IMG/VR virus record: IMGVR_UViG_3300050500_000418
Source of the DNA: a virus
Reading direction: 5' to 3' (one strand)
Length of the DNA: 64,000 nucleotides
Under the pieces are notes generated by a model. That model saw only the letters and a list, made by a program, of their open reading frames with translations. It was not told where the DNA came from and ran no database searches. The translations under genes and the position numbers were made by a program. Within the stretch, counting starts at the first letter, position 1; each line of letters starts with the position of its first letter. This document shows, piece after piece, positions 4,669 through 34,672 of this stretch.

Positions 4669-4673
4669 CCCAA

Positions 4674-6420: not shown

Positions 6421-6422
6421 GG

Positions 6423-6438: not shown

Positions 6439-6551
6439 CCACCACCGCGGGCGGGTAGGGCGCCGGGGCGCCGGCCACCGATCCTGCGCCCAGGGGCGCC
6501 GCCCTCCGGCCATCCGCTGGAGCGGCGGCGGCCCGCCCGCACCCCACACCT

Positions 6552-6624
6552 TCGCGGGTAGTTCAATCGGCAGAACGCCAGCCTCTGGAGCTGGATGTTG
6601 GAGGTTCGAACCCTCCCCTGCGAG
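6552..6624 (+). tRNA. tRNA-Gln (anticodon CTG)
   Basis: Acceptor TCGCGGG/CCTGCGA (one G-U), anticodon arm CCAGC-CTCTGGA-GCTGG, T-arm GGAGGTTCGAACCCTCC. Confidence 0.8.
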
Positions 6625-6806
6625 CCGGGACCGGAGGCTTCCCCCTCTGGGCCACGGGCCTGCCTGTGGCGGAGGCTGGGAGCTGGCGCGTCAGTGCGGC
6701 CTCTGGTCCTGACCCTTCCCTGCCCGTCACACCGGAACACCAGCAGGCCCGGCGCCGGGTCCGAGCGTGGCCAGGAGGCGGGCAAGGGAAGCCGGCCCCC
6801 CGTCCA

Positions 6807-8587: not shown

Positions 8588-8781
8588 TGGCCCTCTTCGC
8601 GCCGGAGGGCCGGCCCCGCGGCTGCCACAGCAGCGTGACCCTCCGCATGACCTTCCACACCTGGACGGGCGGCATGTTCACCCTGGCCCCCTGTGACTGC
8701 GGCCGGGCCCTCGCCTCCGGACTGGGCTTCGGCACAGTCACCCTCGACCAGGACCCCGCGGCGGAGGCGGGGCCAGCGTGA
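8587..8781 (+). CDS. hypothetical protein
   Basis: GTG 8587 overlapping upstream TAG, in frame of ORF-track 8413..8781. Confidence 0.4.
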   Translation: MALFAPEGRPRGCHSSVTLRMTFHTWTGGMFTLAPCDCGRALASGLGFGTVTLDQDPAAEAGPA

Positions 8782-9371
8782 ACGGCCCCTACGACGACCC
8801 TGACGTCACCCTGGAGGAGGTCACCGCCCCCCATCCCGTGGGCTTCTACCTAGCGCCCGGTCCCCTCCCCGACGTGCCCCGAGCCCGGCGCCCTCCGCCC
8901 GGGATGTTCACCACGGCCATGGGCCTCGTCCTCCTGGTCGCCGCCGTGAGCGTCGCATACGTCGTCGGCCCCCTCGCCGACCTCACCCAGGGCACCACCC
9001 GCCCGGCCCCGGAGGTCGCCGAAGACGCACCGCCCGCATCCTCGACCACCACCACGACCACGGCGAGGCCCACCACCTCAGCGCCGGCCACCACAGCCCC
9101 TCAGCCCCCGCCTCCTGCCCCGACGATCCCGCCGGCCTCCACCACGAGCCTGGCGCCCACGCCGGCCACCACCGCCCCACCGACGACCGCATCCACCACA
9201 ACGAGTACCACCGCCCCGCCCACCACCTCGACCAGCACCACCAGCACGACCATCCCCCCGTCGACGACGCCGCCGACGGTTCCATGCCCGGGAGATCCAA
9301 CATGCCCACCCCCCTCCGTACCCGAGCCCGCCGCCGACTCATCCTCTTCGCCCTCCGCCACCCCCGGGTAG
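8778..9371 (+). CDS. membrane-anchored Thr/Pro-rich protein
   Basis: ORF track; GTGA overlap; one TM helix then about 110 aa of T/P/S/A repeats. Confidence 0.6.
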   Translation: MNGPYDDPDVTLEEVTAPHPVGFYLAPGPLPDVPRARRPPPGMFTTAMGLVLLVAAVSVAYVVGPLADLTQGTTRPAPEVAEDAPPASSTTTTTTARPTTSAPATTAPQPPPPAPTIPPASTTSLAPTPATTAPPTTASTTTSTTAPPTTSTSTTSTTIPPSTTPPTVPCPGDPTCPPPSVPEPAADSSSSPSATPG

Positions 9372-9392
9372 CCAGGGCACTACACAAGGTCG

Positions 9393-9409
9393 CTAACCGG
9401 TGTTAGTGT
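9393..9409 (+). promoter_or_regulatory. cassette variant CTAACCGGTGTTAG with -10 TAGTGT, heads the MC-array operon
   Basis: 3-mismatch palindrome; ATG 9418 8 nt after -10. Confidence 0.5.
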
Positions 9410-9417
9410 GGCCGGCC

Positions 9418-9627
9418 ATGTGTGACAACTCCAGCAACGGCCACGGCTCCGACTCTGACGCCGGAACGGCCGCCCGGGGCGCCGGCCAGGGATCGAGCCT
9501 CTCCGCCATCTTCGGCCGGCCCACCGACCGGACCACGCCCTCCGGGCGCAATGGCCACCGCATCGGCCTCACCCGCCTGCTGACCCTCGACGTGGCCCGC
9601 CGACTCGCCGCGAGGGGGACCGCCTGA
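9418..9627 (+). CDS. MC-array unit 1 (MCDNSSNGHG..)
   Basis: ATGTGT at 9418 in frame of ORF-track 9400..9627; leaderless position. Confidence 0.6.
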   Translation: MCDNSSNGHGSDSDAGTAARGAGQGSSLSAIFGRPTDRTTPSGRNGHRIGLTRLLTLDVARRLAARGTA

Positions 9628-9773
9628 TGTGCGTGGAACGGACCCGCACCGACGCCGACGGCAACGAGGTCACCGAGATCTGGGTCCGCCGCAACCCCTG
9701 GCGTGAGGGGCCGCCGCCCATGCCCCTCACCCGCCTCCTCCGGCGACTCGCCGGCCTGATCCATGTGCGCTGA
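9627..9773 (+). CDS. MC-array unit 2 (MCVERTRT.., 48 aa)
   Basis: Hand translation; TGATGTGC stop/start overlap; below ORF-track size cut-off. Confidence 0.45.
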   Translation: MCVERTRTDADGNEVTEIWVRRNPWREGPPPMPLTRLLRRLAGLIHVR

Positions 9774-10011
9774 GTCGAACGGCCACGGCGGCGACGGCAA
9801 CGCCCAGAGCGCCGTGAACGATCACACCGGCCGCACCACCTGGGAGGGCATCACCCGCCGAGGCCAGCGCCCCGGCCGCCGCCCCTCCGGCGGCAACGGC
9901 CGCGACGGATCCCACCCCCGATGGGGCACCCCCATGACACGCATCAGCATCCGCCGACGGCTGGCCATCCGCCTCGCCGCAGCGAGCCTGACCTACCTGG
10001 CCACCCGCTGA
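9763..10011 (+). CDS. MC-array unit 3 (MCAESNGHGGDG..)
   Basis: ORF track. Confidence 0.55.
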   Translation: MCAESNGHGGDGNAQSAVNDHTGRTTWEGITRRGQRPGRRPSGGNGRDGSHPRWGTPMTRISIRRRLAIRLAAASLTYLATR

Positions 10012-10190
10012 TGTGCGATAGCAGCAACGGCAACGGCCACGGCGCCCCCGGCGATGCCCGCCGCGTCATCGACCACGCCACCCCCGACCGGCGACGCCGG
10101 CACTTCCTGGGCGGCTGGTCCATCCGCCACCGAGGCAACGGCCACCCACCCCAGCCCGCGCCCACCGCACCTGAGCACGAGGACACCTGA
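10011..10190 (+). CDS. MC-array unit 4 (MCDSSNGNGHG..)
   Basis: ATG 10011 (TGATGTGC overlap) in frame of ORF-track 9921..10190. Confidence 0.55.
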   Translation: MCDSSNGNGHGAPGDARRVIDHATPDRRRRHFLGGWSIRHRGNGHPPQPAPTAPEHEDT

Positions 10191-10192
10191 CG

Positions 10193-10444
10193 ATGTGCGA
10201 TGGAAACGACGGCCCCAAGCGGGGCCGCACCGCAAGAGGCTGGTACGGAGAGCAGTACGACCTCCGCACCCGTGAGGAGCGAAGCCGCTACCCCCGCAGC
10301 GCCGGCAACACCAACCCCGAGGGCCCCGGCTGGCAGCCCCCGCCCCCGACCCGCCGCGGCTGGGAGAAGCCCCCTGACCAGTGGATGGGCCGCACCCTAT
10401 GGCCCATCGCACTACTCACCCGCCTCATCCCCCGGAGGACCTGA
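10193..10444 (+). CDS. MC-array unit 5 (MCDGNDGPKRG..)
   Basis: ORF track; TGAcgATGTGC junction. Confidence 0.55.
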   Translation: MCDGNDGPKRGRTARGWYGEQYDLRTREERSRYPRSAGNTNPEGPGWQPPPPTRRGWEKPPDQWMGRTLWPIALLTRLIPRRT

Positions 10445-10446
10445 CG

Positions 10447-10959
10447 ATGTGCAAGCCCCACCCCACTGATCCCCGCTACTGGTCCAACCCCCCGGACATG
10501 ACCGACCACCCACCACGCGGTGGGATGCAGAACTTCCAGGCCGTCACCGCACCCCTCGTGGCGCTGAGCATCCTCATGGCCTGCACCAACGGCGACGGGG
10601 ATGATGGCGGCGGCCGGCCCGGCCCCCTGGCCCGAGCCCGGGCCTACATGAACGAGCCCATCGATGACGCCCGCGCCCCGCGCAACGGCCCACGCCCGGC
10701 GCCGCCCTTCCACTGGGCCATCCCCGCCGCGCGGGGCCTCCTCCTGATGTGCACAGGCGGTGATGAGAGCGACGACGTGTCCGGGGGTACCCCGCCGCGC
10801 CCCGGCTGGCCGAGCCGCAACGAGGCTGACCAGACGGCACCCCCGGGCGGCTGGGGCAAGTTCAGGATCAGGCCCAAGGGCACGCACGGCCCGTGGAACT
10901 TCCGGCGCATCCTCGACCTGGCCCTGCACCGCCACCCCGCCTACAACCGGCGCGCCTGA
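10447..10959 (+). CDS. MC-array unit 6, composite (MCKPHP.. + signal/lipobox-like LVALSILMAC-TNGDGDD + in-frame MCTGGDESDD)
   Basis: ATG 10447 in frame of ORF-track 10381..10959; TGAcgATGTGC junction; internal in-frame CTGATGTGC at 10744. Confidence 0.55.
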   Translation: MCKPHPTDPRYWSNPPDMTDHPPRGGMQNFQAVTAPLVALSILMACTNGDGDDGGGRPGPLARARAYMNEPIDDARAPRNGPRPAPPFHWAIPAARGLLLMCTGGDESDDVSGGTPPRPGWPSRNEADQTAPPGGWGKFRIRPKGTHGPWNFRRILDLALHRHPAYNRRA

Positions 10960-11483
10960 TGTGCAAGCCCCGCCCCGGTCCCCGGTCCTACCGGGGACCG
11001 GGCGAACCGCAGGGAGGCCTCGACCCCCACCTCAGGGCCAGGACCGCCCAACCCTCCAACGATCGGAGACCGACCATGTGCGACCCCGCAGACCGCGGCC
11101 CCTCCCAGACCATCGAACGACGAGGCGCCCGGCGAGCCCACGATGTCACCACCGGCCGCGAGGACTGGTGGAAGGGCCACGGCTTCATCCCCCTCGCCGT
11201 GCTGGCCCTGGTGACTCTGGCTTGCCCCAACGGCGATGACGGCAACGGTGACCCCGCCGCTCCCCTGCGCGACGTGGACCCCTCCCAGGCCCCGCCCCCG
11301 CGGACCTTCCGGCTCATGACGTGGCTTCGCCAGTCGACCACCAGCGATGGGGGCAACCTCCTCCGCCAGGGCCGACCGGTCGCGTGGTTCCGGTGGACGT
11401 TCCTGGACCTGGACCGGCACGCCCAGGGCTGCCAGTGGGTCCGCTTCCTGCGGGCCCTCGGCTACCGCCGGACGGCCGCGTGA
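10959..11483 (+). CDS. MC-array unit 7, composite (MCKPRP.. + in-frame MCDPADR.. + LAVLALVTLAC-PNGDDGNGD)
   Basis: ATG 10959 (TGATGTGC overlap) in frame of ORF-track 10893..11483. Confidence 0.55.
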   Translation: MCKPRPGPRSYRGPGEPQGGLDPHLRARTAQPSNDRRPTMCDPADRGPSQTIERRGARRAHDVTTGREDWWKGHGFIPLAVLALVTLACPNGDDGNGDPAAPLRDVDPSQAPPPRTFRLMTWLRQSTTSDGGNLLRQGRPVAWFRWTFLDLDRHAQGCQWVRFLRALGYRRTAA

Positions 11484-11620
11484 TGTGCCGGGGCAAGGAC
11501 AACCCCTACATCAAGCGCCCGGCCCCGCCGCCCTCGACCAGCGCGGCCGCTACGCCCCGAGCCCGGCGATCGAAGTGGATCGCCCCCTTCCGGCGCGTCC
11601 TGGCCCTGAGGGCCGCGTGA
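11483..11620 (+). CDS. MC-array unit 8 (MCRGKDNPY.., 45 aa)
   Basis: ATG 11483 (TGATGTGC overlap) in frame of ORF-track 11321..11620. Confidence 0.5.
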   Translation: MCRGKDNPYIKRPAPPPSTSAAATPRARRSKWIAPFRRVLALRAA

Positions 11621-11757
11621 TGTGCGGCCACCAGCAGGAGCCGCCCCCGCCGCCGCTCAAGCCCCCCCAGAAGACCGGCCTCGGCCTCGTGAGCGAGCGG
11701 CGCGGGTGGCTGGGCATGATCGTGCGGCTCCTACGCCGCCGGCCCATCATCGCCTGA
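11620..11757 (+). CDS. MC-array unit 9 (MCGHQQEPP.., 45 aa)
   Basis: ATG 11620 (TGATGTGC overlap) in frame of ORF-track 11347..11757; same length as unit 8. Confidence 0.5.
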   Translation: MCGHQQEPPPPPLKPPQKTGLGLVSERRGWLGMIVRLLRRRPIIA

Positions 11758-12119
11758 TGTGCCAACTCGACCGCCTCCCCGCCGACCAGGCCAGGGAGCT
11801 GAACGCCCGCTACCGCAAGGATGGACACGCCATGTGCTCCAACGATGAGCCCGGCCAGAACCACACCGTCTGCCGGTACCGCCCCGACATGGACGATCCC
11901 TTCAACTCCAACCGCTTCGGTGCGCTGGCCCTGGCCTGCTCCGGCAACGGCACCGACGACGCCGCCGACCAGACGCCCCCCGCCGGCCGCAGCCCCGAGC
12001 CCTACGGCCGAGACTTCGGCTCCCGCCTGCCCCGCTTCTTCGATCGGGCCATCCTGGCCATCGCCTCCGCGGTGGCCTTCGTGGTCGGCTGGACTGTGCG
12101 CGGCCCCGAGGCTCGGTGA
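11757..12119 (+). CDS. MC-array unit 10, composite (MCQLDR.. + in-frame MCSNDEPG.. + FGALALAC-SGNGTDD + C-terminal TM)
   Basis: ATG 11757 (TGATGTGC overlap) in frame of ORF-track 11622..12119. Confidence 0.55.
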   Translation: MCQLDRLPADQARELNARYRKDGHAMCSNDEPGQNHTVCRYRPDMDDPFNSNRFGALALACSGNGTDDAADQTPPAGRSPEPYGRDFGSRLPRFFDRAILAIASAVAFVVGWTVRGPEAR

Positions 12120-12340
12120 TGTGCACCAACCAGAACAGCGGCTCAGGCGAGGGCGGCAGGGACATCGGAAGCGTCGGCGGCTGGGCCACACCCCAGGAGT
12201 CCAACGATCACTACGGGGCCTGGGGGCGTCCCTCCGCCCGCGAACGCGAGCAGCACCAGCGCGAGGAACACCGAGGCCGAGGCCGCCCACCGGGACGCGG
12301 TACCCGCGGCGGCCGCTGGCCCCGACCTGACGGCTCATGA
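12119..12340 (+). CDS. MC-array unit 11 (MCTNQNSGSGEGG..)
   Basis: ATG 12119 (TGATGTGC overlap); ORF-track 12116..12340. Confidence 0.55.
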   Translation: MCTNQNSGSGEGGRDIGSVGGWATPQESNDHYGAWGRPSAREREQHQREEHRGRGRPPGRGTRGGRWPRPDGS

Positions 12341-26935: not shown

Positions 26936-29545
26936 ATGGCTGCTGACGACACAGGCGACCGCGCCGGCGCGTCCGTCGTGCTCGCGTCGCGTCCTGGACG
27001 CCCCGCTCCGGCCCCTCCTGCGGCGTCTCCTGCCATCGAGGCGCCGGCCGCTTCTGCACCCCCCGCCCGGTCCCTGACGGCCGCGGCGCGGCGCATCGAT
27101 CTGACGACCCGCGACGGACGGCGCATCATCACGAAGCCCTCCGAGCGGGACAAGGCCATCTGGTCCTTCATCCGCTCAGTCCCCGAAGCGAAGTTCGCTG
27201 TGCGGTTCATGGGCAACGCCCTATCCCGGGTGACCCTCTACCCGGGCGTCATCGTGGACCCGGCCGAGGCGCCCGTGCCCGTCGACCAAGCCGTCGACGA
27301 CCCTGAGATCAAGCTGCCCCCGCAGATCGCAGCGGACGCCCTATCCGAGCATGAGCGCATCACCGCCGGCCCCGACGGGCAGGCCGGCCTCATGCGCGGA
27401 TTCGGCGAGAACCTGACGGCCACCGGCGAGGCGTACCTGGTGGGCCGCGGCGCCGACGAATTCGACCCCGTCATCGACGACGAGGTGTGGCAGGTCTACT
27501 CCAAGAGCAACATCGTCGCCGGCCGCGGGCAGGACAGCATCCTCCTCAAGTCCAGCCCCAAGGACCCCGGCCGCGAGCTGGCGCCCGACGACCTCCTCTA
27601 CCGCGTCTGGCGCCGCGACACCGAGTGGCCCGACATCGCCGACGCCGGCATCGGGTCGGTCATCGATGAGCTGGAGGAGCTGCTCATCTACTCGCGGCAG
27701 TTCCGCGCCGTGGGCAAGAGCCGCAACCCCGCCGGCATCCTCCTCCTCCCCTCCGAGCTGGACCCGCCCAAGCCCCAGCGCGCCCAGGGCGCCGCCGGCC
27801 AGACGCCCACCCCCGACCCGGCTGACCAGACGCCCGCCGACGGGTGGACGCAATTCGAGACGAGCCTCGTGCGGAGCCTCATCGCTCCCAACGAGGATGA
27901 CGGGTCCGCCGCCAGCGTCGTCCCCCACATCATCAAGGGACCCGGCAGCATCCTCGAGAAGGTCCGCCACCTACTCCTCGACCGGACGATCGACAAGGAA
28001 GCGATCGGCCGCATGAAGTTCCTCATCGAGCGGATCGCGCACGGCGTCGACCTGCCCGTTGAGGTCCTCACCGGCATCGCTGACGCCAACCACTGGACGG
28101 GCTGGCAAATCGAGGACTCCACGTGGAAGGCCCACGTGGAGCCCACCGCCCAAATCCCCGCCATCGGCCTCACGGCCGTGCACCTGCGCCCCGCCCTCCT
28201 CGGGCACGGCCACGACCGCCAGTGGGTCCGCCGCATCGTCTTCGGCGTGGACCCCTCCCGGCTGGTGGTGCGACCCAACCGCGCCGCTGACGCACAGAAG
28301 GCCCATGAGGCCATCGTCATCAGCGACGAGGCGTACCGCGGACACCTGGGCTTCGCCGAGTCCGACGCCCCCACAGAGGAGGAGCGCCTCCGCCGCTACG
28401 CCCTCGAGAAGTCCGGCATCGGCCAGGACATCACAGCCCAGCTCTTCAACTTCCTGCGCCTCCTGCCCCCCGAGGCGCTGGGCCTCGACCCGCACAAGCC
28501 CGTCCTCATCCCCTCCGAGATCGCAGCCAAGGCCGGCGCCGAGGCCGCCATCGAAGTATCCGAGGCCGTCCCCGAGGACGCACCGCCGGCCGATGACGCC
28601 ACCCCCGAGGAGGGCGGCGACCCCACCCCCGACACTGAGCCGGCCGAGCCGCCCGAGGATGACGCTGCGAGTGACACGGCCGCCGGCCTCACCGCCGCGG
28701 GCGTCGAGCTCACCGGCCTCGGCGAGACCCTTGACGGCATCGAGACCCGCCTCCGGGACCGCCTCCAAGTCGCCGCGTCCGGCGAGATGAACAGGGCCCT
28801 CACCCGAGCAGGCAACCGCATCCGCGGGTCCGTGCAAGGCGACCCCGAGGCGCGCGACGAGGTCAACGGCGTGCCCGCCGAATCGGTGGGCCTCATCCTG
28901 GGCACCGAACGCTCACCCGTCACTGACCCTGAGCAGCTCCTGGTCGGCGCCTTCGAGGACCTACGCGGCCAGTGGGACGCCTGGGTCACTGACGCTGAGG
29001 CGGCCGCCGCCACCGCTGTGGCCACCAGCTCAACCACCGACGCCACGCCCGATGACGGGAGCACCGACCGTGACGCCGGCTGGACTGCCCTGTACCTCGG
29101 CCTCCTGGCCTACGCAGCGCCCCGCATCTTCCAGGCCGTAGACGCTGAGGGAGGCGAGGCTGATCTGACGCTGTCGGTGCCCGCCGGCATCATCCGCGAC
29201 GCCCTGACCGTCGCCGGTGGGGGCCAGAGCGGGTTCGCTCCGGCCGGCCTCGTGGGCCAAGTCGGTCCGCCAGGTCTGCTGACGGGCCCCCGCTGGCGCG
29301 AGCGCCTCGCCGCCCAGGGCATCCGAGTCGTGGCCCTCACCTGGAACGTGGGCTTCCCCTCCGCTCCCTTCGCCCCGCATCAGGCCCTCGCCGGGACCGT
29401 CTTCAGTGACTGGCAGGACCCGCAACTCACGAACGGGGGGACGTTCCCCGCCACATCCCACTTCTACCCAGGAGACCATCGAGGCTGTCAGTGCTCCACC
29501 GGCTCGATCCTGGTACAACTCAATCGACAGGAGGACGCAGCATGA
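26936..29545 (+). CDS. portal protein, apparently fused to a C-terminal MuF/SPP1-gp7-like head-morphogenesis domain
   Basis: ORF track; 869 aa between terminase and protease; C-terminal ..HFYPGDHRGCQCSTG.. resembles the MuF HPNCRC motif. N-terminal start uncertain. Confidence 0.6.
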   Translation: MAADDTGDRAGASVVLASRPGRPAPAPPAASPAIEAPAASAPPARSLTAAARRIDLTTRDGRRIITKPSERDKAIWSFIRSVPEAKFAVRFMGNALSRVTLYPGVIVDPAEAPVPVDQAVDDPEIKLPPQIAADALSEHERITAGPDGQAGLMRGFGENLTATGEAYLVGRGADEFDPVIDDEVWQVYSKSNIVAGRGQDSILLKSSPKDPGRELAPDDLLYRVWRRDTEWPDIADAGIGSVIDELEELLIYSRQFRAVGKSRNPAGILLLPSELDPPKPQRAQGAAGQTPTPDPADQTPADGWTQFETSLVRSLIAPNEDDGSAASVVPHIIKGPGSILEKVRHLLLDRTIDKEAIGRMKFLIERIAHGVDLPVEVLTGIADANHWTGWQIEDSTWKAHVEPTAQIPAIGLTAVHLRPALLGHGHDRQWVRRIVFGVDPSRLVVRPNRAADAQKAHEAIVISDEAYRGHLGFAESDAPTEEERLRRYALEKSGIGQDITAQLFNFLRLLPPEALGLDPHKPVLIPSEIAAKAGAEAAIEVSEAVPEDAPPADDATPEEGGDPTPDTEPAEPPEDDAASDTAAGLTAAGVELTGLGETLDGIETRLRDRLQVAASGEMNRALTRAGNRIRGSVQGDPEARDEVNGVPAESVGLILGTERSPVTDPEQLLVGAFEDLRGQWDAWVTDAEAAAATAVATSSTTDATPDDGSTDRDAGWTALYLGLLAYAAPRIFQAVDAEGGEADLTLSVPAGIIRDALTVAGGGQSGFAPAGLVGQVGPPGLLTGPRWRERLAAQGIRVVALTWNVGFPSAPFAPHQALAGTVFSDWQDPQLTNGGTFPATSHFYPGDHRGCQCSTGSILVQLNRQEDAA

Positions 29546-31197
29546 GGACCTGGACGAGCCCGGCCGGCATCGCGTACGAGGACGTGCAAACGGGCGACGG
29601 GCGCATCTTCGTCGCCGGGTGCTTCTACTGGGACGACCCCGGGCAAGGCTGGCCCCACCGCCTCGACATCGAAGACGACGGGTGGCACGACGGGGCCCTC
29701 CTCATCGGGACCATCCGCACCATGGAACGCCGCGGCGACGGGACCATCGGCGCCGAGGGGTGGATGGACGACGAGACGACGGCCGGCATGGTCGCCGCCC
29801 GGATGCACGACCAGGGCATGCCCCTGGGCGTCTCCGTGGACCTCGACGACATGGCAGTCGAGTTCGTGGCCACCGACCTCGAGGAACCCGAGTCCGAGGA
29901 GGAGATGAGCGTGGTGTACGCCGCGCAGGGCCTCACCGCCTCGGCCATCTTCACCGACACCGGCGAGCTCCACTCCCTGAGCATCCCGGGCCTGCGCGGC
30001 GTCCTCGCCGCCGCCGGCATGGAGGGACTCCTCGCAGCGGCCGGCGACGGGGACCCCGACGACGGCGTCGTCATGTGGGCCGACTCCATGGACTCCATGA
30101 TCATGCGCTGCACCCGCGCTCGCATCCGCGGCCTCACCGAGGTGCAGATCCCCGCCTTCGCGCGGGCGGCCCTCCTCTACGCCGACGCCGGCGCCCCCGC
30201 CGACGACAGCGCACCCGAGGATGAGCCGGCCGTCGAGGAAGGCGACGGTGACGCCTCGGTGCGCGTCACCCACGAGCCCGCCCCGGAGACCACGGCCACG
30301 GGGTGCGGAGGTGAGTGTGGCTGCGGAGGTGATTGCGACGGTCAAGCCCTCGCCGCCGCGGCCACCACCTCCACCATCCCCGTGCGTCCCCCGGCCGCCT
30401 ACTTCACCGACCCGGGCTTCAGCAACGACGACGTCATCACTGTGGAGGACCCCGACACGGGCCGCACCCTGCGCGGCGTCCCGATGCAGTACCTCCCCTC
30501 CGGTGAGGTCCTGGGGCACATCGCCATGTGGGGCCAGTGCCACACCGGCTCCCCCTCCGGGCAGTGCGTCCTCACGCCCCACTCAGCATCCGGGTACCGG
30601 TGGTTCCAGCCCGGCCACATCGAGCTCGATGACGGGACCCTCCGCCCCAGCGGCAACCTGACGCTGGGCGGCGGCCACGCCGACGTCATGCTCTCCTACC
30701 GGGCCGCCCTCAACCACTACGACGACGTGAGCACCCAGGCCGCCCAGATCACAGCAGGCGAGGACCGCTACGGCGTATGGGTCCACGGCGCGGGCCTCCC
30801 GGACGTGTGGGACAACGAGCTGACCATGCGCAAGCTCCGGGCCGCCAGCCCCTCAGGGGACTGGCGATGGATCGGCGGCACCCTGGAGCTGATCATCGCC
30901 CACTGCGTCAACGGCCCCGGCTTCCCTGTTCCCCGCGCGCAGGTCGCATCGGGCGGGACCGTCACAGCCCTCGTCGCCGCGGGCGCCCGGGACATGGCAC
31001 TCCTCGCCGCCGCTGCACGAGGCGAGGCGGACCCGGCCGCCGCTCTGGCAGCGGAGGTCCGCGAGGCCATCGCCGCTGGCATCGCTGACGGCGTAGGCCA
31101 GGTGCTGGGAGCGCAGAGGGCACGCGAGACCGCCGACGCTCGGCGACGCCTCCTCGCCTCCCGCCGCGATCGCGTAGTGGCCAGCCTCAAGGGCTAG
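29542..31197 (+). CDS. prohead (capsid maturation) protease, HK97-type, with long C-terminal extension
   Basis: ATG 29542 (ATGA overlap) in frame of ORF-track 29491..31197; ..GWHDGALLIGTI.. and ..PLGVSVDLDD.. resemble His/Ser catalytic regions. Confidence 0.55.
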   Translation: MRTWTSPAGIAYEDVQTGDGRIFVAGCFYWDDPGQGWPHRLDIEDDGWHDGALLIGTIRTMERRGDGTIGAEGWMDDETTAGMVAARMHDQGMPLGVSVDLDDMAVEFVATDLEEPESEEEMSVVYAAQGLTASAIFTDTGELHSLSIPGLRGVLAAAGMEGLLAAAGDGDPDDGVVMWADSMDSMIMRCTRARIRGLTEVQIPAFARAALLYADAGAPADDSAPEDEPAVEEGDGDASVRVTHEPAPETTATGCGGECGCGGDCDGQALAAAATTSTIPVRPPAAYFTDPGFSNDDVITVEDPDTGRTLRGVPMQYLPSGEVLGHIAMWGQCHTGSPSGQCVLTPHSASGYRWFQPGHIELDDGTLRPSGNLTLGGGHADVMLSYRAALNHYDDVSTQAAQITAGEDRYGVWVHGAGLPDVWDNELTMRKLRAASPSGDWRWIGGTLELIIAHCVNGPGFPVPRAQVASGGTVTALVAAGARDMALLAAAARGEADPAAALAAEVREAIAAGIADGVGQVLGAQRARETADARRRLLASRRDRVVASLKG

Positions 31198-31202
31198 GAC
31201 TA

Positions 31203-31220
31203 CAAGGGCCAACGGCCCCA
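31203..31220 (+). repeat. direct repeat CAAGGGCCAACGGCCCC(A); partner at 31371-31388
   Basis: 17/18 match with one indel; the pair flanks the terminator and promoter cassette. Confidence 0.6.
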
Positions 31221-31237
31221 TCCATACCCCCACAAGC

Positions 31238-31267
31238 CCGGCCCCCGCCCCACCAGGCGGGGGCCGG
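31238..31267 (+). terminator. intrinsic-terminator-like hairpin after protease gene
   Basis: 12-bp perfect stem CCGGCCCCCGCC/GGCGGGGGCCGG, 6-nt loop. Confidence 0.55.
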
Positions 31268-31332
31268 CACGCGTCCGCAGCCCCTGCGACCTGCCCAAAC
31301 AAACCCGGGTTAGAAAAGTTCCGCCCAAACGC

Positions 31333-31362
31333 TTGACCTGCTGCGCTAACCCGGGTTAGTGT
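31333..31362 (+). promoter_or_regulatory. cassette: -35 TTGACC, CTAACCCGGGTTAG, -10 TAGTGT, with no start codon after it
   Basis: Exact palindrome 31346-31359; 18-nt spacing; expected start-site region CTCTCTTGCAAGG has no ATG/GTG. Confidence 0.65.
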
Positions 31363-31751
31363 CTCTCTTGCAAGGCCAACGGCCCCCCGGGGCCACCGGC
31401 CCCCGGTCCTTGAAAACTGAACCAACCGCCTGGCCAGTGGCCGGGCAGCCCGCAAGGTGGGCCACCGCCGACGCCATGAGCGTGCCGGGGAGCGGAGCCA
31501 CATCTTCGAGGGAACCATCGCTCAGCCCACGGGCTGGGGGGACTCCCCGGTACCTGCCCGGCCACAACGGCCAGCGACCACCCCTGGGGTAGTGAACCCA
31601 GCCGCGAGGCTGGGGAGGCACGACCTGCGGGAGCCCCACTAGCAACACCGGTGGGTGTCTGATCCCAGGGGAGGTCACACCATCGTTGAGGTGGTAGTCG
31701 GAGCACCGGCCATCCGCCGGGACCGCCGGCCATGACGCCTCAACCAAATCG

Positions 31752-31834
31752 CCGGAAGATGCGGGTTCGACTCCCGTCCAGTCCACAACGAGGGCTGGTA
31801 GCTCAACGGTCAGAGCACCGGGTTTCTTGTTCGG
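31752..31834 (+). ncRNA. circularly permuted tRNA-like module inside the large RNA
   Basis: Order: T-arm GCGGG-TTCGACT-CCCGT, CCAGTCC, 7-nt loop, GGGCTGG (7 complementary pairs incl. one G-U), D-arm GCTC-AACGGTCA-GAGC, then CCGGG-TTTCTTG-TTCGG hairpin. Confidence 0.55.
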
Positions 31835-32170
31835 TGAGAGCGGCCAACCACATGGGTGGCCCGCCGCTCGCCCAGGGTTCTACGTGGCCAACGCCTGGCT
31901 CCCTGGCACCGAACATCCCTCCGCCGGCCGCTGCCTGGATCCGCCTCCCAGGCGGCGGCCGCCGGCACACCTCCACCACGCCTCGCCCCCCGTGGCAGGT
32001 GGAGGCGACGCGAGGACCCCGGGGGCCGGCCACGCAGAACCGCCACTCGTCGCCGGTCACCGGGGCCTCGACCACCCACCCGCCGCCCGCGGCGGACCGA
32101 CCCTGAGCGCAGGCGCCCTCCGCCCGCCTGGTGATGACCAGCCCCACCCCGCCAGGGCTGTTCAGGGTCG

Positions 32171-32260
32171 GTCCCTGCGGGGGCCGCACCGACTCCGAGA
32201 CTGGCCACCGGACTCCCATCCACGGTCACTGCTCCGGGCTGGTGCGGCCCCCGCAGGGAC
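32171..32260 (+). repeat. 20-bp perfect inverted repeat (long-range helix) within the large RNA
   Basis: GTCCCTGCGGGGGCCGCACC (32171-32190) and its exact reverse complement (32241-32260), 50 nt apart. Confidence 0.8.
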
Positions 32261-32473
32261 GGGACTCCCTGCTCCCAACACGCCGGCCCGATGCCGGCAC
32301 CCGCAATACCAGCGCAGCGGCCGGGCCTCTTCGCCGTAGAGAGGCCCGGCCCTGCGTGGGCGCCACACCCACCCGGCCCCGTTCGAACGCATCGACCACG
32401 GAGGAGCGAGGCCCGGGGCGGCCTTGAACGCAGGGTGTGACGCCCACGCAGGAGGTGCCTGCGCGTGCTCAAA

Positions 32474-32501
32474 GAAGCCCCCGACTCCGGTCGGGGGCTT
32501 C
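32474..32501 (+). terminator. intrinsic terminator
   Basis: 12-bp perfect stem GAAGCCCCCGAC/GTCGGGGGCTTC, TCCG loop, then TTCGCG. Confidence 0.65.
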
Positions 32502-32563
32502 TTCGCGTCCCCGGACGCTCCCGCCTCACGCCCCCTCTCTGAGCCTCGACGGCGTCAAGGTGC

Positions 32564-32593
32564 TTGCACCCGCCGTCACCTACGTCCTACGAT
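32564..32593 (+). promoter_or_regulatory. possible SigA-type promoter without palindrome (TTGCAC-N18-TACGAT) upstream of capsid gene
   Basis: Hexamer match and spacing only; would give an approximately 130-nt leader. Confidence 0.3.
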
Positions 32594-32731
32594 CCCGTCA
32601 GCTTCCAGCCGTCCCTAGGGCGGCTCCGGTAGCGGCCATAGGTCCCGAGGGCCTGCACCGTTCTTGCGTGCGCCCCGAGGATCGCGTCTGGCGTACGCCC
32701 CCACGTACGACCCGAAGCGAGGCCCTTCCGC

Positions 32732-34672
32732 ATGGAAACCCTCATCCAGCTCCTGACCGCCTACGGCGCGTCGGAGGAGATCGTCGCTCTCGCTCAGCGG
32801 CTGGTGGACGCCACCGTCCCCGAGCCGGCCGAGGGTGACACCGAGCCCGAGTCCCGCCTCCTGTCCTGGCAGGGCGACCCCCTGACCGACGCCGAGCTGG
32901 AGACCCTGCGCACCTACCTGGAGGGTCTGGGCGACGACAACGACGCCGAGATCGAACTCCTCGAGGCTGCCCTCGACGGCGTGTCCCGCATCCGCGAGGA
33001 GGAGACCTACCGCGACGCAGCGGCCGAGGCGGCCGCCAGCGAGCGCGAGGACCTCGTCACCCGCCTGCGCGGCGAGCGCGCCGAGGAGGCCGGCGACGAG
33101 GGCGGCGACCCCGCCGAGGGCGACGACGAGGACGAGAACGACGGCGGCGACCCCGCCGAGGGCGACGACCCCGAGGCGACCGACGATGCCGGCGCCGAGG
33201 AGGAGGAAGGGGACCGGGAGCCGGTCCTGGCCGGCGCCGTTCCGGGCCGACGCGTCTCACGCTCCGAGCTGGCCCGCCGCCAGCCCCGCCGCCAGCCCCC
33301 CAACCCGGCCCCGGACCCCGCCGACACGACCACGGCCGCCCTGTCCGACATCGTCTTCGCCGCGGACGTCCCCGAGACGCCCGCCGGTCGCATCACCCAC
33401 ACCCTCGCGGACGTCGACAGGGCGCTGGAGCGTCGCCGCGACGGCTTCCGCCGCACCCACCGAGGCCGCGGCGCGAGCTCGGCCGGCCACTCCAAGGACG
33501 GCGAGGCCGGCCCCCAGGAGTACCTGACGGTCGCGACCGTCATGTCCGACTACCCCGAGAACCGTCGCCTCATGGACGCGGACGGCGAGATGCTGTCCTC
33601 GGCCCAGGTCACCCGCATCATCCGGGAGGCCATCGACGACGGCATCGCGGCGACTCGCGAGCGGGGCGGCATGGTGGCGGCCGGTGGCCTGTGCGCCCTG
33701 CCCACGCCGCTCTACAACGTCGTCACGTACGGCAACCCCCGACGGCCCATCCGGGACCAGGCCCTCGTCAGCTTCCAGGCGGCCCGCGGTGGCGTCACCG
33801 ACCTCACGCCGCCCACCCTGGGCAACATCCTCACGGGCGACGCCGCCGGCCGGGCCATCAGCGAGTGGACCGTGCAGAACGACACGGACGCCACCGCCGG
33901 CACCCCCACCAAGCCGTGCCAGCGCGTCACCTGCGGCGCCCAGCGCACCACCCAGATCTACGCCGTCACCTACTGCCTGACGGTCGGCAACATCCTGGCC
34001 CGGACGTACCCCGAGCTGCAGAACGCCTGGTCCAGCCTGGCGCTCATCGCGCACGCCCGGTTCTCCGAGGCCCTGATGTTCGCCCGCCTCCAGACGCTGG
34101 CGACGACGACGACCAACACGATGACGGACTTCTCCGCGTCGCGGGACGTCCTCACGATCCTCGACCAGACGGCCGCCGGCATGCGCTCGCGGCACCGCCT
34201 GGACGACGACTTCCCCTTCATCGTGATCCTCCCGTCGCTGCTGAACACCATCTTCCGCATCGACATCTCCCGCAGCCTGCCCGGCGGCAGCTTCCAGGAG
34301 AACCTCACGCTGGCCCAGGCGCAGATCAACGCGTGGTTCGCCTCCCGGTTCATCACGCCCGTGTGGTCACCGGACGTGAACACCATCGGCAACCAGGGCG
34401 CGGACACCGCCCTGGCCGCCCTCCCGCCGACCATCAACTACGTGATGTACCCGGCGGGGACCTTCATCCACCTCGACGGCGGCGAGCTGGATCTGGGCGT
34501 CGTGCGCGACACCGCGACCAACGCGGTGAACGACTTCCAGGTCTTCTCGGAGACCTTCGAGAACGTTCACATGGTCGGCCCGGAGGCCATCGACGGGACC
34601 ATCGACGTGTGCCCCTCCGGTGCCGTCGCCGGCACCATCGACCCGGCGCCCTTCTGCGCCTCCTACACCTGA
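32732..34672 (+). CDS. major capsid protein with long acidic N-terminal (scaffold/delta-like) region
   Basis: ORF track; position after protease; first approximately 230 aa Asp/Glu/Ala-rich. C-terminal approximately 400 aa has capsid-like composition. No separate scaffold gene seen. Confidence 0.7.
   Translation: METLIQLLTAYGASEEIVALAQRLVDATVPEPAEGDTEPESRLLSWQGDPLTDAELETLRTYLEGLGDDNDAEIELLEAALDGVSRIREEETYRDAAAEAAASEREDLVTRLRGERAEEAGDEGGDPAEGDDEDENDGGDPAEGDDPEATDDAGAEEEEGDREPVLAGAVPGRRVSRSELARRQPRRQPPNPAPDPADTTTAALSDIVFAADVPETPAGRITHTLADVDRALERRRDGFRRTHRGRGASSAGHSKDGEAGPQEYLTVATVMSDYPENRRLMDADGEMLSSAQVTRIIREAIDDGIAATRERGGMVAAGGLCALPTPLYNVVTYGNPRRPIRDQALVSFQAARGGVTDLTPPTLGNILTGDAAGRAISEWTVQNDTDATAGTPTKPCQRVTCGAQRTTQIYAVTYCLTVGNILARTYPELQNAWSSLALIAHARFSEALMFARLQTLATTTTNTMTDFSASRDVLTILDQTAAGMRSRHRLDDDFPFIVILPSLLNTIFRIDISRSLPGGSFQENLTLAQAQINAWFASRFITPVWSPDVNTIGNQGADTALAALPPTINYVMYPAGTFIHLDGGELDLGVVRDTATNAVNDFQVFSETFENVHMVGPEAIDGTIDVCPSGAVAGTIDPAPFCASYT

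What the first reader, a model, noticed from the sequence alone, without database searches (positions are those of the whole stretch)
31370..32501. About 1.1 kb promoter-to-terminator non-coding, highly structured RNA between protease and capsid genes
The 1.5-kb interval 31198-32731 is the only long stretch in this otherwise tightly packed genome without a credible ORF. The ORF-track candidates there (31359..31592, 31732..32106, 31827..32339 and others) give Arg/Pro-rich low-complexity products. Their third-position A/T content is far higher than in neighbouring genes.

The interval starts with a perfect copy of the cassette (-35 TTGACC 31333, palindrome 31346-31359, -10 TAGTGT 31357-31362), but no ATG or GTG follows. 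It ends at a 12-bp perfect terminator hairpin (32474-32501).

In between lie many long GC helices:
- 14 bp at 31925-31938 / 31948-31961.
- 8 bp at 31970-31977 / 31998-32005.
- 11 bp with one bulge at 32011-32022 / 32060-32070.
- 20 bp perfect at 32171-32190 / 32241-32260.
- 12 bp at 32319-32330 / 32340-32351.

There is also a tRNA-like module. Large ornate phage- or prophage-associated RNAs such as GOLLD and ROOL are known to sit near, or contain, tRNA-like elements. Whether this RNA belongs to such a class or is new cannot be decided by eye. Its position, under the shared operator inside the head-gene block, is unusual.
Basis: partly seen in the sequence, partly recalled or inferred. Interest (0 to 1): 0.85.

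Follow-up and report, generated by a model that had tools for sequence, protein, structure and literature searches.

The report
Phage non-coding RNA with tRNA mimic
Between the head-protease and capsid genes of this high-GC phage lies a self-contained, about 1.1 kb gene that makes no protein but a strongly folded RNA, and its swappable middle part copies the tRNA-like domain of bacterial Y RNAs; its function is unknown.

Summary
Window 31198-32731 shows no coding signal in any frame. It starts with one of about 22 promoter/operator cassettes, one of only two not followed by a start codon. It ends at a 14-bp terminator hairpin (32472-32503). All the reported helices exist.

The RNA has three parts:
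- 5' domain, 31368-31745: fold z = -3.1.
- Central segment, 31746-31919.
- 3' domain, 31920-32505: z = -11.4 on the + strand, -7.6 on the - strand.

A 97%-identical variant phage keeps both outer domains. Its substitutions spare the + strand helices (2 pairs broken against 6.3 expected, P about 0.008; one double compensatory change). The - strand shows no such pattern, and no frame shows an excess of synonymous changes.

The central segment is replaced outright in that variant. In the window it folds as a circularly permuted tRNA: T arm, a 7-bp acceptor-like hairpin with G3.U70 and A73, then a D arm. This is the tRNA-like effector domain of YrlA (Y RNA-like) RNAs, and it recurs almost base for base in an unrelated viral contig.

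It lacks the Ro60-binding motif, the V arm and a neighbouring rsr gene. Rfam gives no GOLLD, ROOL, HEARO, OLE or tmRNA match.

Transcription, processing and function are untested, and only one phage lineage carries it.

The parts
31238..31267 (+). Perfect 12-bp GC hairpin (CCGGCCCCCGCC / GGCGGGGGCCGG) 40 nt after the stop codon of the protease-like gene. It is the likely terminator of the portal-protease operon and the upstream boundary of the unit.
   Evidence: Inverted repeat I22. The 200-nt window at 31201 has z = -3.6. It is identical in the variant phage.
31299..31313 (.). Upstream operator-like palindrome ACAAACCCGGGTTAG, with 2 mismatches to the cassette palindrome. Its centre lies 46 bp from the main operator.
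   Evidence: repeats D9 and I14.
31333..31362 (+). Promoter/operator cassette: -35 TTGACC (31333-31338), palindrome GCTAACCCGGGTTAG (31345-31359), -10 TAGTGT (31357-31362). The predicted transcript start is near 31368-31370.
   Evidence: Sequence. The palindrome gives 44 matches against 0.02 expected. Of 23 + strand cassette sites, 19 have ATG or GTG at +24 to +26, and this copy does not. The stretch 31341-31502 is identical in the variant, while 31280-31340 differs at 10 of 61 positions.
31368..31745 (+). 5' domain of the RNA (378 nt). It holds nested helices, among them 31437-31448 / 31554-31565 (12 bp), 31581-31590 / 31662-31671 (10 bp) and 31685-31693 / 31736-31744 (9 bp).
   Evidence: z = -3.06, with 0 of 100 shuffles folding as well. 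It is 97% identical in the variant. A double compensatory change, 31687 U>C with 31742 A>G, keeps the 9-bp helix.
31746..31919 (+). Variable central segment (174 nt), made of the tRNA-like domain plus a three-way junction. In the 97%-identical variant phage it is replaced by an unrelated 114-nt segment.
   Evidence: Alignment of window and variant. Fold z = -3.19, and the minimum-energy and centroid structures are the same. The variant allele has no module and no Rfam match.
31752..31821 (+). YrlA-type permuted tRNA-like domain. Closing stem CCGG 31752-31755 / 31818-31821. T arm 31761-31777 (GCGGG-UUCGACU-CCCGU). Acceptor-like hairpin 31778-31784 / 31792-31798 (CCAGUCC / GGGCUGG), with G31794.U31782 at the 3:70 position, followed by A31785 and C31786. 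D arm 31801-31816.
   Evidence: Rfam YrlA 33.5 bits, E = 4.6e-5, model positions 23-85 of 114. My own covariance model scores it 79.7 bits, though it is in the training set. Across 27 modules 94% of cells are paired and 14 of 20 pairs covary. A near-identical copy in L011 has a compensatory closing stem, CCAG / CUGG.
31828..31915 (+). Three-way junction downstream of the tRNA-like domain: outer stem 31828-31836 / 31907-31915, with hairpins 31838-31869 and 31872-31906. The span 31792-31874 also scores weakly as a tRNA lacking a T arm.
   Evidence: Rfam tRNA 22.7 bits, below the gathering score of 29. ARAGORN finds nothing here.
31920..32471 (+). 3' domain: a chain of long GC helices. These are 14 bp (31925 / 31961), 8 bp, 5+6+7 bp (32011-32070), 11-13 bp (32094-32108 / 32160-32174), 21 bp (32171-32191 / 32240-32260), 12 bp (32320 / 32350) and 12+7 bp (32351-32370 / 32433-32452).
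   Evidence: z = -11.4 on the + strand against -7.6 on the - strand. It is 97.8-99.2% identical in the variant, and 7 of 8 substitutions fall in unpaired positions while the eighth keeps its pair.
32472..32503 (+). Intrinsic terminator: 14-bp stem AAGAAGCCCCCGAC / GUCGGGGGCUUCUU with loop UCCG. An A-tract precedes it and the 3' arm is U-rich.
   Evidence: (I3). It is identical in the variant, where a further cassette-plus-gene unit is inserted directly after it.
32564..32593 (+). Context only: a promoter-like pair, TTGCAC-18 nt-TACGAT, ahead of a roughly 135-nt leader of the capsid gene. This suggests the capsid gene is transcribed independently of the RNA unit.
   Evidence: My own reading of the sequence; the consensus scan did not report it. 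The stretch 32494-32731 is 88% identical in the variant, with the TACGAT kept.

Best explanation
This is a stand-alone, operator-controlled gene for a non-coding RNA of about 1.13 kb (31368-32503, + strand). It sits in a gap between the head-protease and capsid genes that behaves as an insertion hot spot.

**Shown**
- It encodes no protein.
- It has the same promoter/operator as about 20 leaderless phage genes, plus its own terminator. A terminator lies upstream and a separate capsid promoter lies downstream.
- The transcript would fold into a 5' domain, an exchangeable central segment and an exceptionally stable 3' domain.
- The outer domains evolve so as to keep the + strand helices.
- The central segment carries a circularly permuted tRNA mimic of the YrlA type, ordered T arm, 7-bp acceptor-like stem, D arm.

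**Inferred**
- As with Mycobacterium smegmatis YrlA, the 7-bp acceptor-like stem makes the RNA a substrate for RNase P, which would cut 5' of G31792.
- 3' trimming and CCA addition would follow after A31785-C31786. This would split the transcript into two halves that stay paired.
- The tRNA-like domain, which is the effector-binding domain of Y RNAs, would then engage a host tRNA-binding or RNA-decay factor without Ro60/Rsr, acting as a decoy or tether.
- The flanking GC helices would serve as a nuclease-resistant scaffold.
- The G3.U70 pair with A73 raises the possibility of recognition by alanyl-tRNA synthetase.
For: **Non-coding**
- There is no phase-specific GC signal.
- No frame has more than 7 of 17 substituted codons synonymous.
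- A 1-nt indel at about 32381 in the variant would break the ORFs that span it.
- The 239-aa and 138-aa minus-strand ORFs have no homologues outside this lineage in 5.8 billion sequences or 1.8 billion cluster representatives.
- No PHROG family matches any ORF of the interval.

**Unit boundaries**
- In the variant a second cassette-plus-gene unit follows the terminator. This shows these are modular transcription units.

**Structure**
- z = -11.4 for the 3' domain, -3.1 for the 5' domain and -3.2 for the centre.
- The flanking genes average -0.6 with sd 1.3.

**Selection on structure**
- There are 18 substitutions in 943 nt. On the + strand fold 11 are unpaired, 5 keep a pair and 2 break one.
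- A base-matched null gives 6.3 +/- 1.6 broken, P = 0.007-0.008.
- On the - strand fold 6 are broken, P = 0.19.
- RNA divergence is 1.9%, against synonymous divergence of 2.5-7% in the flanking genes.
- The promoter and the first 135 nt of the RNA are identical, next to a spacer that differs at 16% of positions.

**tRNA mimic**
- Rfam matches YrlA to its tRNA-like core only.
- A near-identical module lies in the unrelated 62% GC viral contig L011, with a compensatory closing stem.
- The family shows covariation.
- The same pattern search retrieved modules lying next to TROVE/Ro60 genes in 8 loci.
- The tRNA-like part is described as the effector-binding domain in bioRxiv 10.1101/312249.
Against: - There is no expression data. 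The promoter, the transcript start and single-transcript status are all inferred.
- The large RNA was found only in one phage lineage, in two sequence versions that are 97% identical. Proper covariation analysis is therefore impossible, and the helix-sparing test rests on 18 substitutions.
- Constraint is moderate. RNA divergence of 1.9% is only about 2-fold below the synonymous rate and well above the non-synonymous rate of 0.2-0.8%.
- The tRNA-like segment is absent from the variant, so it is dispensable for whatever the outer domains do.
- Long near-perfect GC hairpins are also what actinobacterial terminators look like, and they are unlike the irregular helices of known ornate RNAs.
- No Ro60-binding motif (GNCGAA(N)G) occurs on the + strand of the interval.
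- There is no V arm or YUAY motif, and no TROVE gene in the 64-kb window. The Y RNA analogy therefore covers only part of the molecule.
- Relatives at 48-61% capsid identity lack the RNA, and 80 more distant relatives have no module near the capsid gene.
Confidence: 0.6

Rival explanations
1. The interval is a non-functional relic. The gap between protease and capsid accumulates inserted units (morons, tRNA genes). The present sequence would be their decayed remains: leftover terminator hairpins, plus the 3' half of one tRNA-like gene abutting the 5' half of a tandem duplicate, which happens to fold like YrlA.
For: - The gap is an insertion hot spot. The variant has an extra cassette, a 76-aa gene and a terminator, and relatives carry different small genes there.
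- The central segment is replaced in the variant.
- Chen et al. warn that dimeric tRNAs score with YrlA models (PMC4201824).
- In this window a real tandem tRNA junction at 4632-4709 scores 37 bits with my model.
- The span 31792-31874 looks like a tRNA with an anticodon arm but no T arm.
- Mycobacterium phage Whirlwind has a normal-order tRNA-like sequence with the same acceptor and T arm.
- Overall constraint is only moderate.
- Part of hairpin 32320-32350 resembles the terminator's 3' arm and tail (repeat D12).
Against: - The unit keeps an intact promoter/operator, and its first 135 nt are identical to the variant beside a spacer with 16% divergence.
- Substitutions avoid breaking + strand pairs, P about 0.008. 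This holds for the + strand only.
- There is a double compensatory change.
- The permuted junction, including the acceptor-hairpin loop (ACAACGA in the window, ACUACGA in L011), is conserved in a very different phage with a compensatory closing stem. Decaying tandem tRNAs would not be expected to show this.
- A z of -11.4 sustained over 586 nt is far beyond isolated terminators, and relatives' gaps show only isolated structured patches.
Confidence: 0.25
2. The interval is a cis-acting insulator or leader. The hairpin array would exist to stop read-through from the portal-protease operon and from the cassette promoter, or to process and stabilise the capsid mRNA. It would not act as a trans-acting RNA.
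For: - It lies immediately upstream of the most highly expressed structural gene.
- It holds many strong hairpins, with a terminator at each end.
- Relatives also have strongly structured patches just upstream of the capsid gene, for example L007 at 5801 with z = -7.6.
Against: - A dedicated promoter that fires into an insulator makes little sense.
- In the variant a whole extra gene unit separates the RNA from the capsid leader, so adjacency is not required.
- The capsid gene has its own promoter-like element and a conserved leader downstream of the terminator.
- This reading does not explain the tRNA mimic.
Confidence: 0.08
3. The interval holds a missed protein-coding gene. Candidates are the minus-strand 239-aa ORF 31810-32529 that gene callers predict, the 138-aa ORF 31803-32219 on the minus strand, or the + strand ORFs 31732-32106 and 31827-32339.
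For: - Gene callers annotated the 239-aa ORF on two assemblies.
- One phase has a mild GC excess (0.82-0.90) across 31830-32190.
Against: - GC at the would-be second codon positions is 0.68-0.80, against about 0.5 in real genes.
- No homologues exist beyond the same lineage, and there are no PHROG hits.
- The variant's ORF has a different length (267 against 138 aa), and I read all six substitutions inside the 138-aa ORF as non-synonymous.
- A 1-nt indel lies inside the 239-aa ORF.
- No frame is enriched in synonymous changes.
- The candidate ORFs lie antisense to, or overlap, the tRNA-like domain.
Confidence: 0.03
4. The RNA is a divergent member of a known large phage RNA class (GOLLD or ROOL), or a two-piece tmRNA.
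For: - GOLLD and ROOL are phage or prophage RNAs that often lie near tRNAs, and tRNAs sometimes sit in the GOLLD linker between a variable 5' region and a conserved 3' region (PMC12286853). The three-part layout here is similar.
- The order T arm, acceptor 3' strand, loop, acceptor 5' strand, together with G3.U70, is also that of permuted tmRNA genes. A weak beta_tmRNA hit of 17.5 bits appears on the L011 copy.
Against: - No Rfam match to GOLLD, ROOL, HEARO, OLE or any tmRNA model, even at E up to 10 in a 1.6-kb search.
- ARAGORN, which also looks for tmRNA genes, finds nothing here.
- No tag-like reading frame ending in Ala-Ala-stop lies downstream.
- The D arm is a canonical tRNA D arm, unlike that of tmRNA (my own knowledge).
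Confidence: 0.02

Closest known systems
[quoted passage not shown] 2014 (PMC4201824), Wang et al. 2018 (bioRxiv 10.1101/312249)
   Same: - Same permuted tRNA-like core, in the same order: short closing stem, variable loop, T arm with GGUUCGAnUCC, acceptor-like hairpin, UA, D arm with GCUCA...AGAGC.
- Rfam aligns the window to model positions 23-85, which is exactly this core.
- The same search pattern retrieved modules lying beside TROVE/Ro60 genes.
   Different: - No GNCGAA(N)G motif for Ro60 binding.
- No V arm or conserved YUAY.
- No rsr gene within 4 kb or anywhere in the 64-kb window.
- The score is 33.5 bits against a gathering score of 69.
- It is embedded in a roughly 1.1 kb RNA rather than being a 110-150 nt sRNA.
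Mycobacterium smegmatis YrlA (PMC4201824)
   Same: - It has a seven-base-pair acceptor-like stem. That paper identifies this feature as the reason the RNA is cut by RNase P and receives CCA.
- The genome encodes the first C after the discriminator. In the window this is A31785-C31786.
   Different: - The M. smegmatis RNA is about 147 nt, lies next to rsr and co-precipitates with Rsr.
- None of that is shown here, and processing of the phage RNA is inferred only.
Orphan module in viral contig IMGVR_UViG_3300021408_000005 (L011/L033)
   Same: - The T arm, acceptor-like hairpin (including its loop) and D arm are nearly identical.
- It has G3.U70 and A73, and a compensatory closing stem (CCAG / CUGG against CCGG / CCGG).
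- It also has no TROVE gene nearby.
   Different: - There it occupies a roughly 190-nt intergenic region about 35 nt upstream of a DUF2786 gene.
- It is not inside a 1.1 kb RNA, and the flanking sequences are unrelated.
GOLLD and ROOL large phage RNAs (PMC12286853)
   Same: - They are large, phage-borne, non-coding and associated with tRNAs.
- GOLLD has a variable 5' region, a linker that sometimes carries tRNAs, and a conserved 3' region. That parallels the layout here of 5' domain, exchangeable tRNA-like segment and 3' domain.
   Different: - No covariance-model match.
- The helices here are long and nearly perfect rather than ornate.
- It is known from one lineage only.
- No evidence bears on multimer or cage formation.
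Tandem (dimeric) tRNA genes and tRNA-like processing signals
   Same: - A tRNA 3' half followed by the 5' half of an identical neighbour folds like this module.
- tRNA-like structures that direct RNase P cleavage of longer transcripts are known, for example mascRNA at the 3' end of MALAT1 (my own knowledge).
   Different: - Here neither flanking half forms a complete tRNA.
- The junction is conserved across two unrelated phages.
Phage morons and operator-linked promoters (phiC31 conserved inverted repeats, cluster A mycobacteriophage stoperators; my own knowledge)
   Same: - It is an independent promoter-to-terminator unit placed between late genes.
- It is controlled by a palindromic operator repeated about 22 times across the genome.
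   Different: The payload is an RNA rather than a protein.

Membership tests
YrlA / bacterial Y RNA (RF02553) | tRNA-like domain with T arm, acceptor-like stem-loop and D arm in that order, closed by a stem | tested here: met
   - Rfam alignment to model positions 23-85.
- The minimum-energy and centroid folds of 31746-31919 both give this domain.
- My own covariance model scores it 79.7 bits.
- The family alignment has 94% of cells paired and 14 of 20 pairs covarying.
YrlA / bacterial Y RNA (RF02553) | GNCGAA(N0-1)G motif near the 5' end, the proposed Ro60/Rsr binding site | tested here: not met
   A regular-expression search finds no match on the + strand of 31198-32731. Caveat: several Rsr-adjacent modules I collected also lack a strict match.
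YrlA / bacterial Y RNA (RF02553) | V stem-loop upstream of the T arm, beginning with a conserved YUAY (seen here as GGUUAY 15-30 nt upstream of the T arm) | tested here: not met
   It is present in most of the collected modules but absent from the window and from L011.
YrlA / bacterial Y RNA (RF02553) | Encoded within about 4 kb of an rsr (TROVE/Ro60) gene on the same strand | tested here: not met
   - The neighbours are the protease-like and capsid genes.
- Pfam finds no TROVE domain in the 10 ORFs scanned, which include the large ones.
- tblastn with 7 TROVE proteins finds nothing in the window.
- About 37 kb of the 101-kb source contig could not be examined.
YrlA / bacterial Y RNA (RF02553) | Rfam gathering score of 69 bits | tested here: not met
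   The window scores 33.5 bits. The Rsr-adjacent modules in L012, L013, L015, L017 and L019 also fail this threshold, so this row is a weak test.
YrlA / bacterial Y RNA (RF02553) | Binding to Ro60/Rsr, and tRNA-type modifications (pseudouridine 55, dihydrouridine) | not testable with these tools
   This needs immunoprecipitation and modification mapping.
GOLLD / ROOL / HEARO / OLE large RNAs | Match to the family covariance model | tested here: not met
   No match at the gathering threshold over the whole window, nor at E up to 10 over 31150-32780.
tmRNA, including two-piece permuted forms | Detection by ARAGORN or the Rfam tmRNA models | tested here: not met
   Only the L011 copy gives a 17.5-bit beta_tmRNA hit, against a gathering score of 84.
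tmRNA, including two-piece permuted forms | Tag reading frame ending in Ala-Ala-stop downstream of the acceptor 5' strand | tested here: not met
   No reading frame in 31792-32510 ends that way.
tmRNA, including two-piece permuted forms | G3.U70 wobble pair and A73 in the acceptor stem (alanine identity) | tested here: met
   G31794.U31782 is followed by A31785. Among the 27 YrlA-type modules, 10 have G.U at this pair and 9 of them also have A73.
Canonical tRNA gene | Complete cloverleaf detected by ARAGORN, or by Rfam tRNA at 29 bits or more | tested here: not met
   ARAGORN finds none in the interval. Rfam tRNA gives 22.7 bits for 31792-31874, with no T arm.
Protein-coding gene | Codon-position GC pattern, excess of synonymous changes, and homologues | tested here: not met

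The most novel reading that the evidence does not exclude
This would be the first example of a new class of large, modular phage RNA. It has a conserved 5' domain and a hyper-stable 3' domain, joined by an exchangeable linker. In this phage the linker carries an Rsr-independent Y RNA effector domain. [quoted passage not shown]
Probability: 0.2. Interest if true: 0.8.

Novelty: new variant of a known kind. Interest (0 to 1): 0.55.

Why it matters
**Y RNA biology.** The factor that binds the tRNA-like effector domain of YrlA RNAs is still unknown (bioRxiv 10.1101/312249). Here a phage carries only that domain. It has no Ro60-binding site and no rsr gene, it sits inside a much larger structured RNA, and it is under a repressor-controlled promoter. 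This suggests the domain can act on its own and that phages exploit it, and it offers a natural construct for pulling down the partner.

**Large phage RNAs.** Large structured non-coding RNAs of phages are few (GOLLD, ROOL) and their functions are unknown. Another tRNA-associated example, from high-GC actinophages, would widen that set.

**Annotation.** Gene callers place a spurious 239-aa ORF over this RNA. In addition, the Rfam gathering score misses even Ro60-adjacent YrlA modules in viral and actinobacterial contigs.

Tried and rejected
**Searches for the interval elsewhere**
- blastn of the whole interval against 50,697 phage records: no match.
- Capsid-based and protease-based searches for relatives in IMG/VR with single proteins: nothing.
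- With a capsid alignment, 80 distant loci were fetched, and none has the tRNA-like module near the capsid gene.
- Closer relatives at 48-61% capsid identity were fetched by protein look-up. Their protease-capsid gaps share no nucleotide or translated similarity with the window apart from the cassette.
- Pattern scans of viral, metagenome and genome collections with the module: many YrlA-type modules, but only one close copy, L011/L033.
- Protein searches with the spurious ORFs, meant to fish out further variants of the RNA: only the one variant already known.

**Hypotheses tested and dropped**
- The tmRNA idea was tested and dropped.
- An attP or tRNA-fragment origin was considered and rejected. 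No integrase gene was noted next to the interval, whose neighbours are the protease-like and capsid genes. The 5' half follows the 3' half. The same arrangement is a folded module in other loci.
- Internal similarity between the module and the outer domains (for example 31803-31822 with 32219-32238) is not significant, with shuffle P of 0.07-0.10.
- Complementarity of RNA segments to the capsid ribosome-binding region (repeats I5 and I10) was judged to be chance in GC-rich sequence.

**Technical failures**
- Two look-ups meant to reach the unseen parts of the contig failed because my ORF starts did not match the recorded gene calls.
- One folding script timed out.
- Base-pair probabilities came out as zero and were ignored.
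Full report
**Source and setting.** The window is 64 kb of a 101-kb metagenomic contig (ENA ERZ27257655 k141_4629075). The same sequence was assembled independently from another sample. It is 71% G+C, and nearly all genes lie on the + strand. PHROG profiles identify 26936-29545 as the portal gene, 29491-31197 as a head-maturation-protease-like gene and 32732-34672 as the major head protein. The closest cultured relatives of the capsid are Arthrobacter, Gordonia and Microbacterium phages, at about 36% identity.

**Is the interval non-coding?**
- Real genes here have GC3 of 0.9-1.0 and GC2 of about 0.5. Across 31200-32700 no phase behaves like that. The only mild excess is 0.82-0.90 in one phase at 31830-32190, and it comes with 0.68-0.80 at the other two positions.
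- A sliding test marks 31021-32880 as the longest run in the window without a coding signal.
- The ORFs in the interval have no PHROG match.
- The 239-aa minus-strand ORF that gene callers predict has no homologue other than itself among 5.8 billion sequences.
- The 138-aa minus-strand ORF hits only a 267-aa ORF from a variant of the same phage. A search with that ORF found nothing more.

**Promoter and terminators.**
- The palindrome GCTAACCCGGGTTAG gives 44 matches on both strands, against 0.02 expected.
- Of the 23 + strand cassette sites, 19 are followed by ATG or GTG at +24 to +26 from the palindrome start, mostly as ATGAGCAC. They are therefore promoters of leaderless genes.
- Two sites have no qualifying ORF at all: 6422, which precedes tRNA-Gln, and 31299, the upstream half-operator of this unit. 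At 31345 only a TTG lies in the slot, in a frame that does not look coding.
- A perfect 12-bp hairpin at 31238-31267 follows the protease gene.
- A 14-bp hairpin with a U-rich 3' arm at 32472-32503 closes the unit.
- Downstream I read a TTGCAC-18-TACGAT promoter-like element and a roughly 135-nt capsid leader.

**Structure.**
- By the tool's dinucleotide-shuffle test the 3' domain (31920-32505) has z = -11.4 on the + strand and -7.6 on the - strand.
- The 5' domain (31368-31745) has z = -3.06.
- The central segment (31746-31919) has z = -3.19, and its minimum-energy and centroid folds are identical.
- In 200-nt windows, 31801-32401 gives z between -2.8 and -7.6, while the flanking genes average -0.6 with sd 1.3.
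- The corresponding gaps of relatives show only isolated structured patches.

**A natural variant.** Two contigs from sample SRR30692733 (L039 and L008) come from a phage 97.5% identical over 6.4 kb of structural genes. Both contigs break inside the 20-bp hairpin.
- They align to window 31078-31745 at 97.0%, to 31920-32237 at 97.8%, and to 32259-32511 at 99.2%.
- Within the RNA body there are 18 substitutions and one 1-nt indel in 943 nt.
- On the + strand fold, 11 substitutions fall in unpaired positions and 5 keep their pair. The pair-keeping ones include U-A to C-G at 31687/31742, two U.G to C-G, and one G.U to A-U. Only 2 break a pair.
- A null that moves each substitution to a random position with the same base expects 6.3 +/- 1.6 broken, P = 0.007-0.008. 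On the - strand fold 6 are broken, P = 0.19.
- No reading frame has more than 7 of 17 substituted codons synonymous.
- RNA divergence is 1.9%. Synonymous divergence of the neighbouring genes is 2.5-7% and non-synonymous divergence is 0.2-0.8%.
- The promoter and the first 135 nt of the RNA are identical, whereas the spacer 31280-31340 differs at 10 of 61 positions.
- Together this points to moderate purifying selection acting on + strand RNA structure. The data set is small.

**Two structural differences in the variant.**
- Window 31746-31919 is replaced by an unrelated 114-nt segment that also folds into hairpins. That segment has no tRNA-like module and no Rfam match.
- Right after the terminator the variant carries an additional cassette, a 76-aa gene and a terminator.
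- The gap is therefore a slot for modular units, and the RNA itself is modular.

**The tRNA-like module.**
- Rfam gives a sub-threshold YrlA hit at 31753-31820: 33.5 bits, E = 4.6e-5, against a gathering score of 69. It aligns only to model positions 23-85, the tRNA-like core.
- Read from the sequence, the elements are:
  - closing stem 31752-31755 / 31818-31821;
  - five-nt variable loop;
  - T arm 31761-31777;
  - 7-bp acceptor-like hairpin 31778-31784 / 31792-31798, with G.U at the 3:70 position, followed by A and then C;
  - UA;
  - D arm 31801-31816.
- This is a tRNA circularly permuted at the anticodon loop and closed at the acceptor end.
- A pattern built on it found an almost identical copy in an unrelated viral contig of 62% G+C (L011). 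There the closing stem is CCAG / CUGG instead of CCGG / CCGG, and the module lies in a roughly 190-nt intergenic region upstream of a DUF2786 gene.
- Looser patterns retrieved further modules from viral, metagenomic and bacterial contigs. Eight of these loci have a TROVE/Ro60 gene next door, so the pattern retrieves genuine YrlA RNAs.
- None of them reaches the Rfam gathering score.
- A covariance model built from 19 modules gave an alignment of 27. In it 94% of cells are paired and 14 of 20 pairs change on both sides. All seven acceptor-stem pairs covary, and the 3:70 pair is G.U in 10 of 27.
- The window and L011 lack the GGUUAY / V-arm region seen upstream of most other modules.
- They also lack the GNCGAA(N)G motif and any TROVE gene in the sequence available.
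- Mycobacterium phage Whirlwind has an unannotated, normal-order tRNA-like sequence with the same acceptor and T arm, matching at 31 of 32 nt. This points to a tRNA-derived origin, probably through tandem duplication.

**What it is not.**
- No Rfam family reaches threshold in the interval. At E up to 10 there is no GOLLD, ROOL, HEARO, OLE, tmRNA or intron hit.
- ARAGORN finds no tRNA or tmRNA there.
- No tag-like reading frame follows the acceptor 5' strand.

**Mechanism.**
- Shown: a bounded, non-coding, + strand unit whose predicted structure is strong and under some selection, with an exchangeable YrlA-type tRNA mimic at its centre.
- Inferred from M. smegmatis YrlA: that RNA's 7-bp acceptor stem is cut by RNase P and gains CCA (PMC4201824). 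The phage RNA should likewise be cut 5' of G31792 and matured after A31785-C31786.
- Inferred from Y RNA biology: the tRNA-like part is the effector-binding domain and binds a still unknown factor (bioRxiv 10.1101/312249). The phage RNA therefore probably presents this domain to a host factor without Ro60, as a decoy or tether. The GC helices would stabilise it.
- Speculative: G3.U70 with A73 makes alanylation conceivable.
- The main rival is that the interval is a decaying pile of inserted units and tandem tRNA remnants. The variant's loss of the module and the moderate constraint favour that view. The intact promoter, the strand-specific sparing of helices and the conserved permuted junction in L011 argue against it.

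**Verdict.** This is best filed as a new variant of a known kind: a YrlA-type tRNA mimic without the Ro60 module, embedded in a long structured phage RNA that matches no described family. It is known from a single lineage, so its standing as an RNA class and its function remain open.

Noticed in passing
window 6422-6805: A second cassette-driven unit has no ORF. It holds tRNA-Gln (6552-6626) with a roughly 105-nt GC-rich leader and a roughly 180-nt trailer, and its fold z is -2.8. The cassette promoters therefore also drive RNA genes.
   Followed up: partly
window, 23 sites from 3990 to 49544: The promoter/operator cassettes (TTGACC, spacer, GCTAACCCGGGTTAG overlapping the -10) are followed at +24 to +26 by ATGAGCAC. 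That makes them leaderless genes that nearly all begin Met-Ser-Thr. Several lie inside the structural gene block (38339, 38822, 49002, 49544).
   Followed up: partly
window 8600-12330: This stretch of about 3.7 kb shows only weak GC3 signals that shift phase, and no ORF passes the coding filter. Its gene content is unclear. There is no Rfam hit at E up to 0.1.
   Followed up: partly
L008 255-561 (variant phage), inserted at window position ~32505: An extra cassette, a 76-aa Cys/His-rich gene and a terminator are inserted directly after the RNA's terminator. The protease-capsid gap is therefore an insertion hot spot. Relatives L003 and L004 carry several small real genes there.
   Followed up: partly
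L012, L013, L015, L017, L019, L036, L037, L038: YrlA-type modules lying beside TROVE/Ro60 genes, some in tandem copies, do not reach the Rfam YrlA gathering score of 69 bits. L037 is from a Micromonospora genome. The curated threshold therefore misses genuine viral and actinobacterial YrlA RNAs.
   Followed up: partly
alignment A3 (27 YrlA-type modules): The acceptor-like stem has G.U at the tRNA 3:70 position in 10 of 27 modules, 9 of them followed by A73 and often C74. This is the alanine identity set. The sample is biased by the search pattern used.
   Followed up: partly
L120 2461-2532 (Mycobacterium phage Whirlwind NC_022052, about 66,813-66,884, minus strand): An unannotated 72-nt tRNA-like sequence in normal order has the same acceptor stem (GGGCUGG / CCAGUCC) and T arm as the window's module, but lacks a proper anticodon stem.
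   Followed up: partly
window 31207-31219 and 31374-31386: A perfect 13-nt direct repeat, GGCCAACGGCCCC, brackets the upstream terminator, both operators and the promoter. The block may have been inserted as a unit. By my estimate the chance probability is about 0.15, so this is not significant.
   Followed up: no
L039 and L008 contig ends (window 32237 / 32259): Both contigs of the variant phage break inside the 20-bp perfect hairpin 32171-32260. This is probably an assembly artefact of the inverted repeat.
   Followed up: no
window 32494-32731; L005 and L007 upstream of the capsid gene: The roughly 135-nt capsid leader is conserved: 88% with the variant, and about 82% between L005 and L007. 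It is strongly structured in relatives (L007 at 5801, z = -7.6) and may be a regulatory leader in its own right.
   Followed up: no
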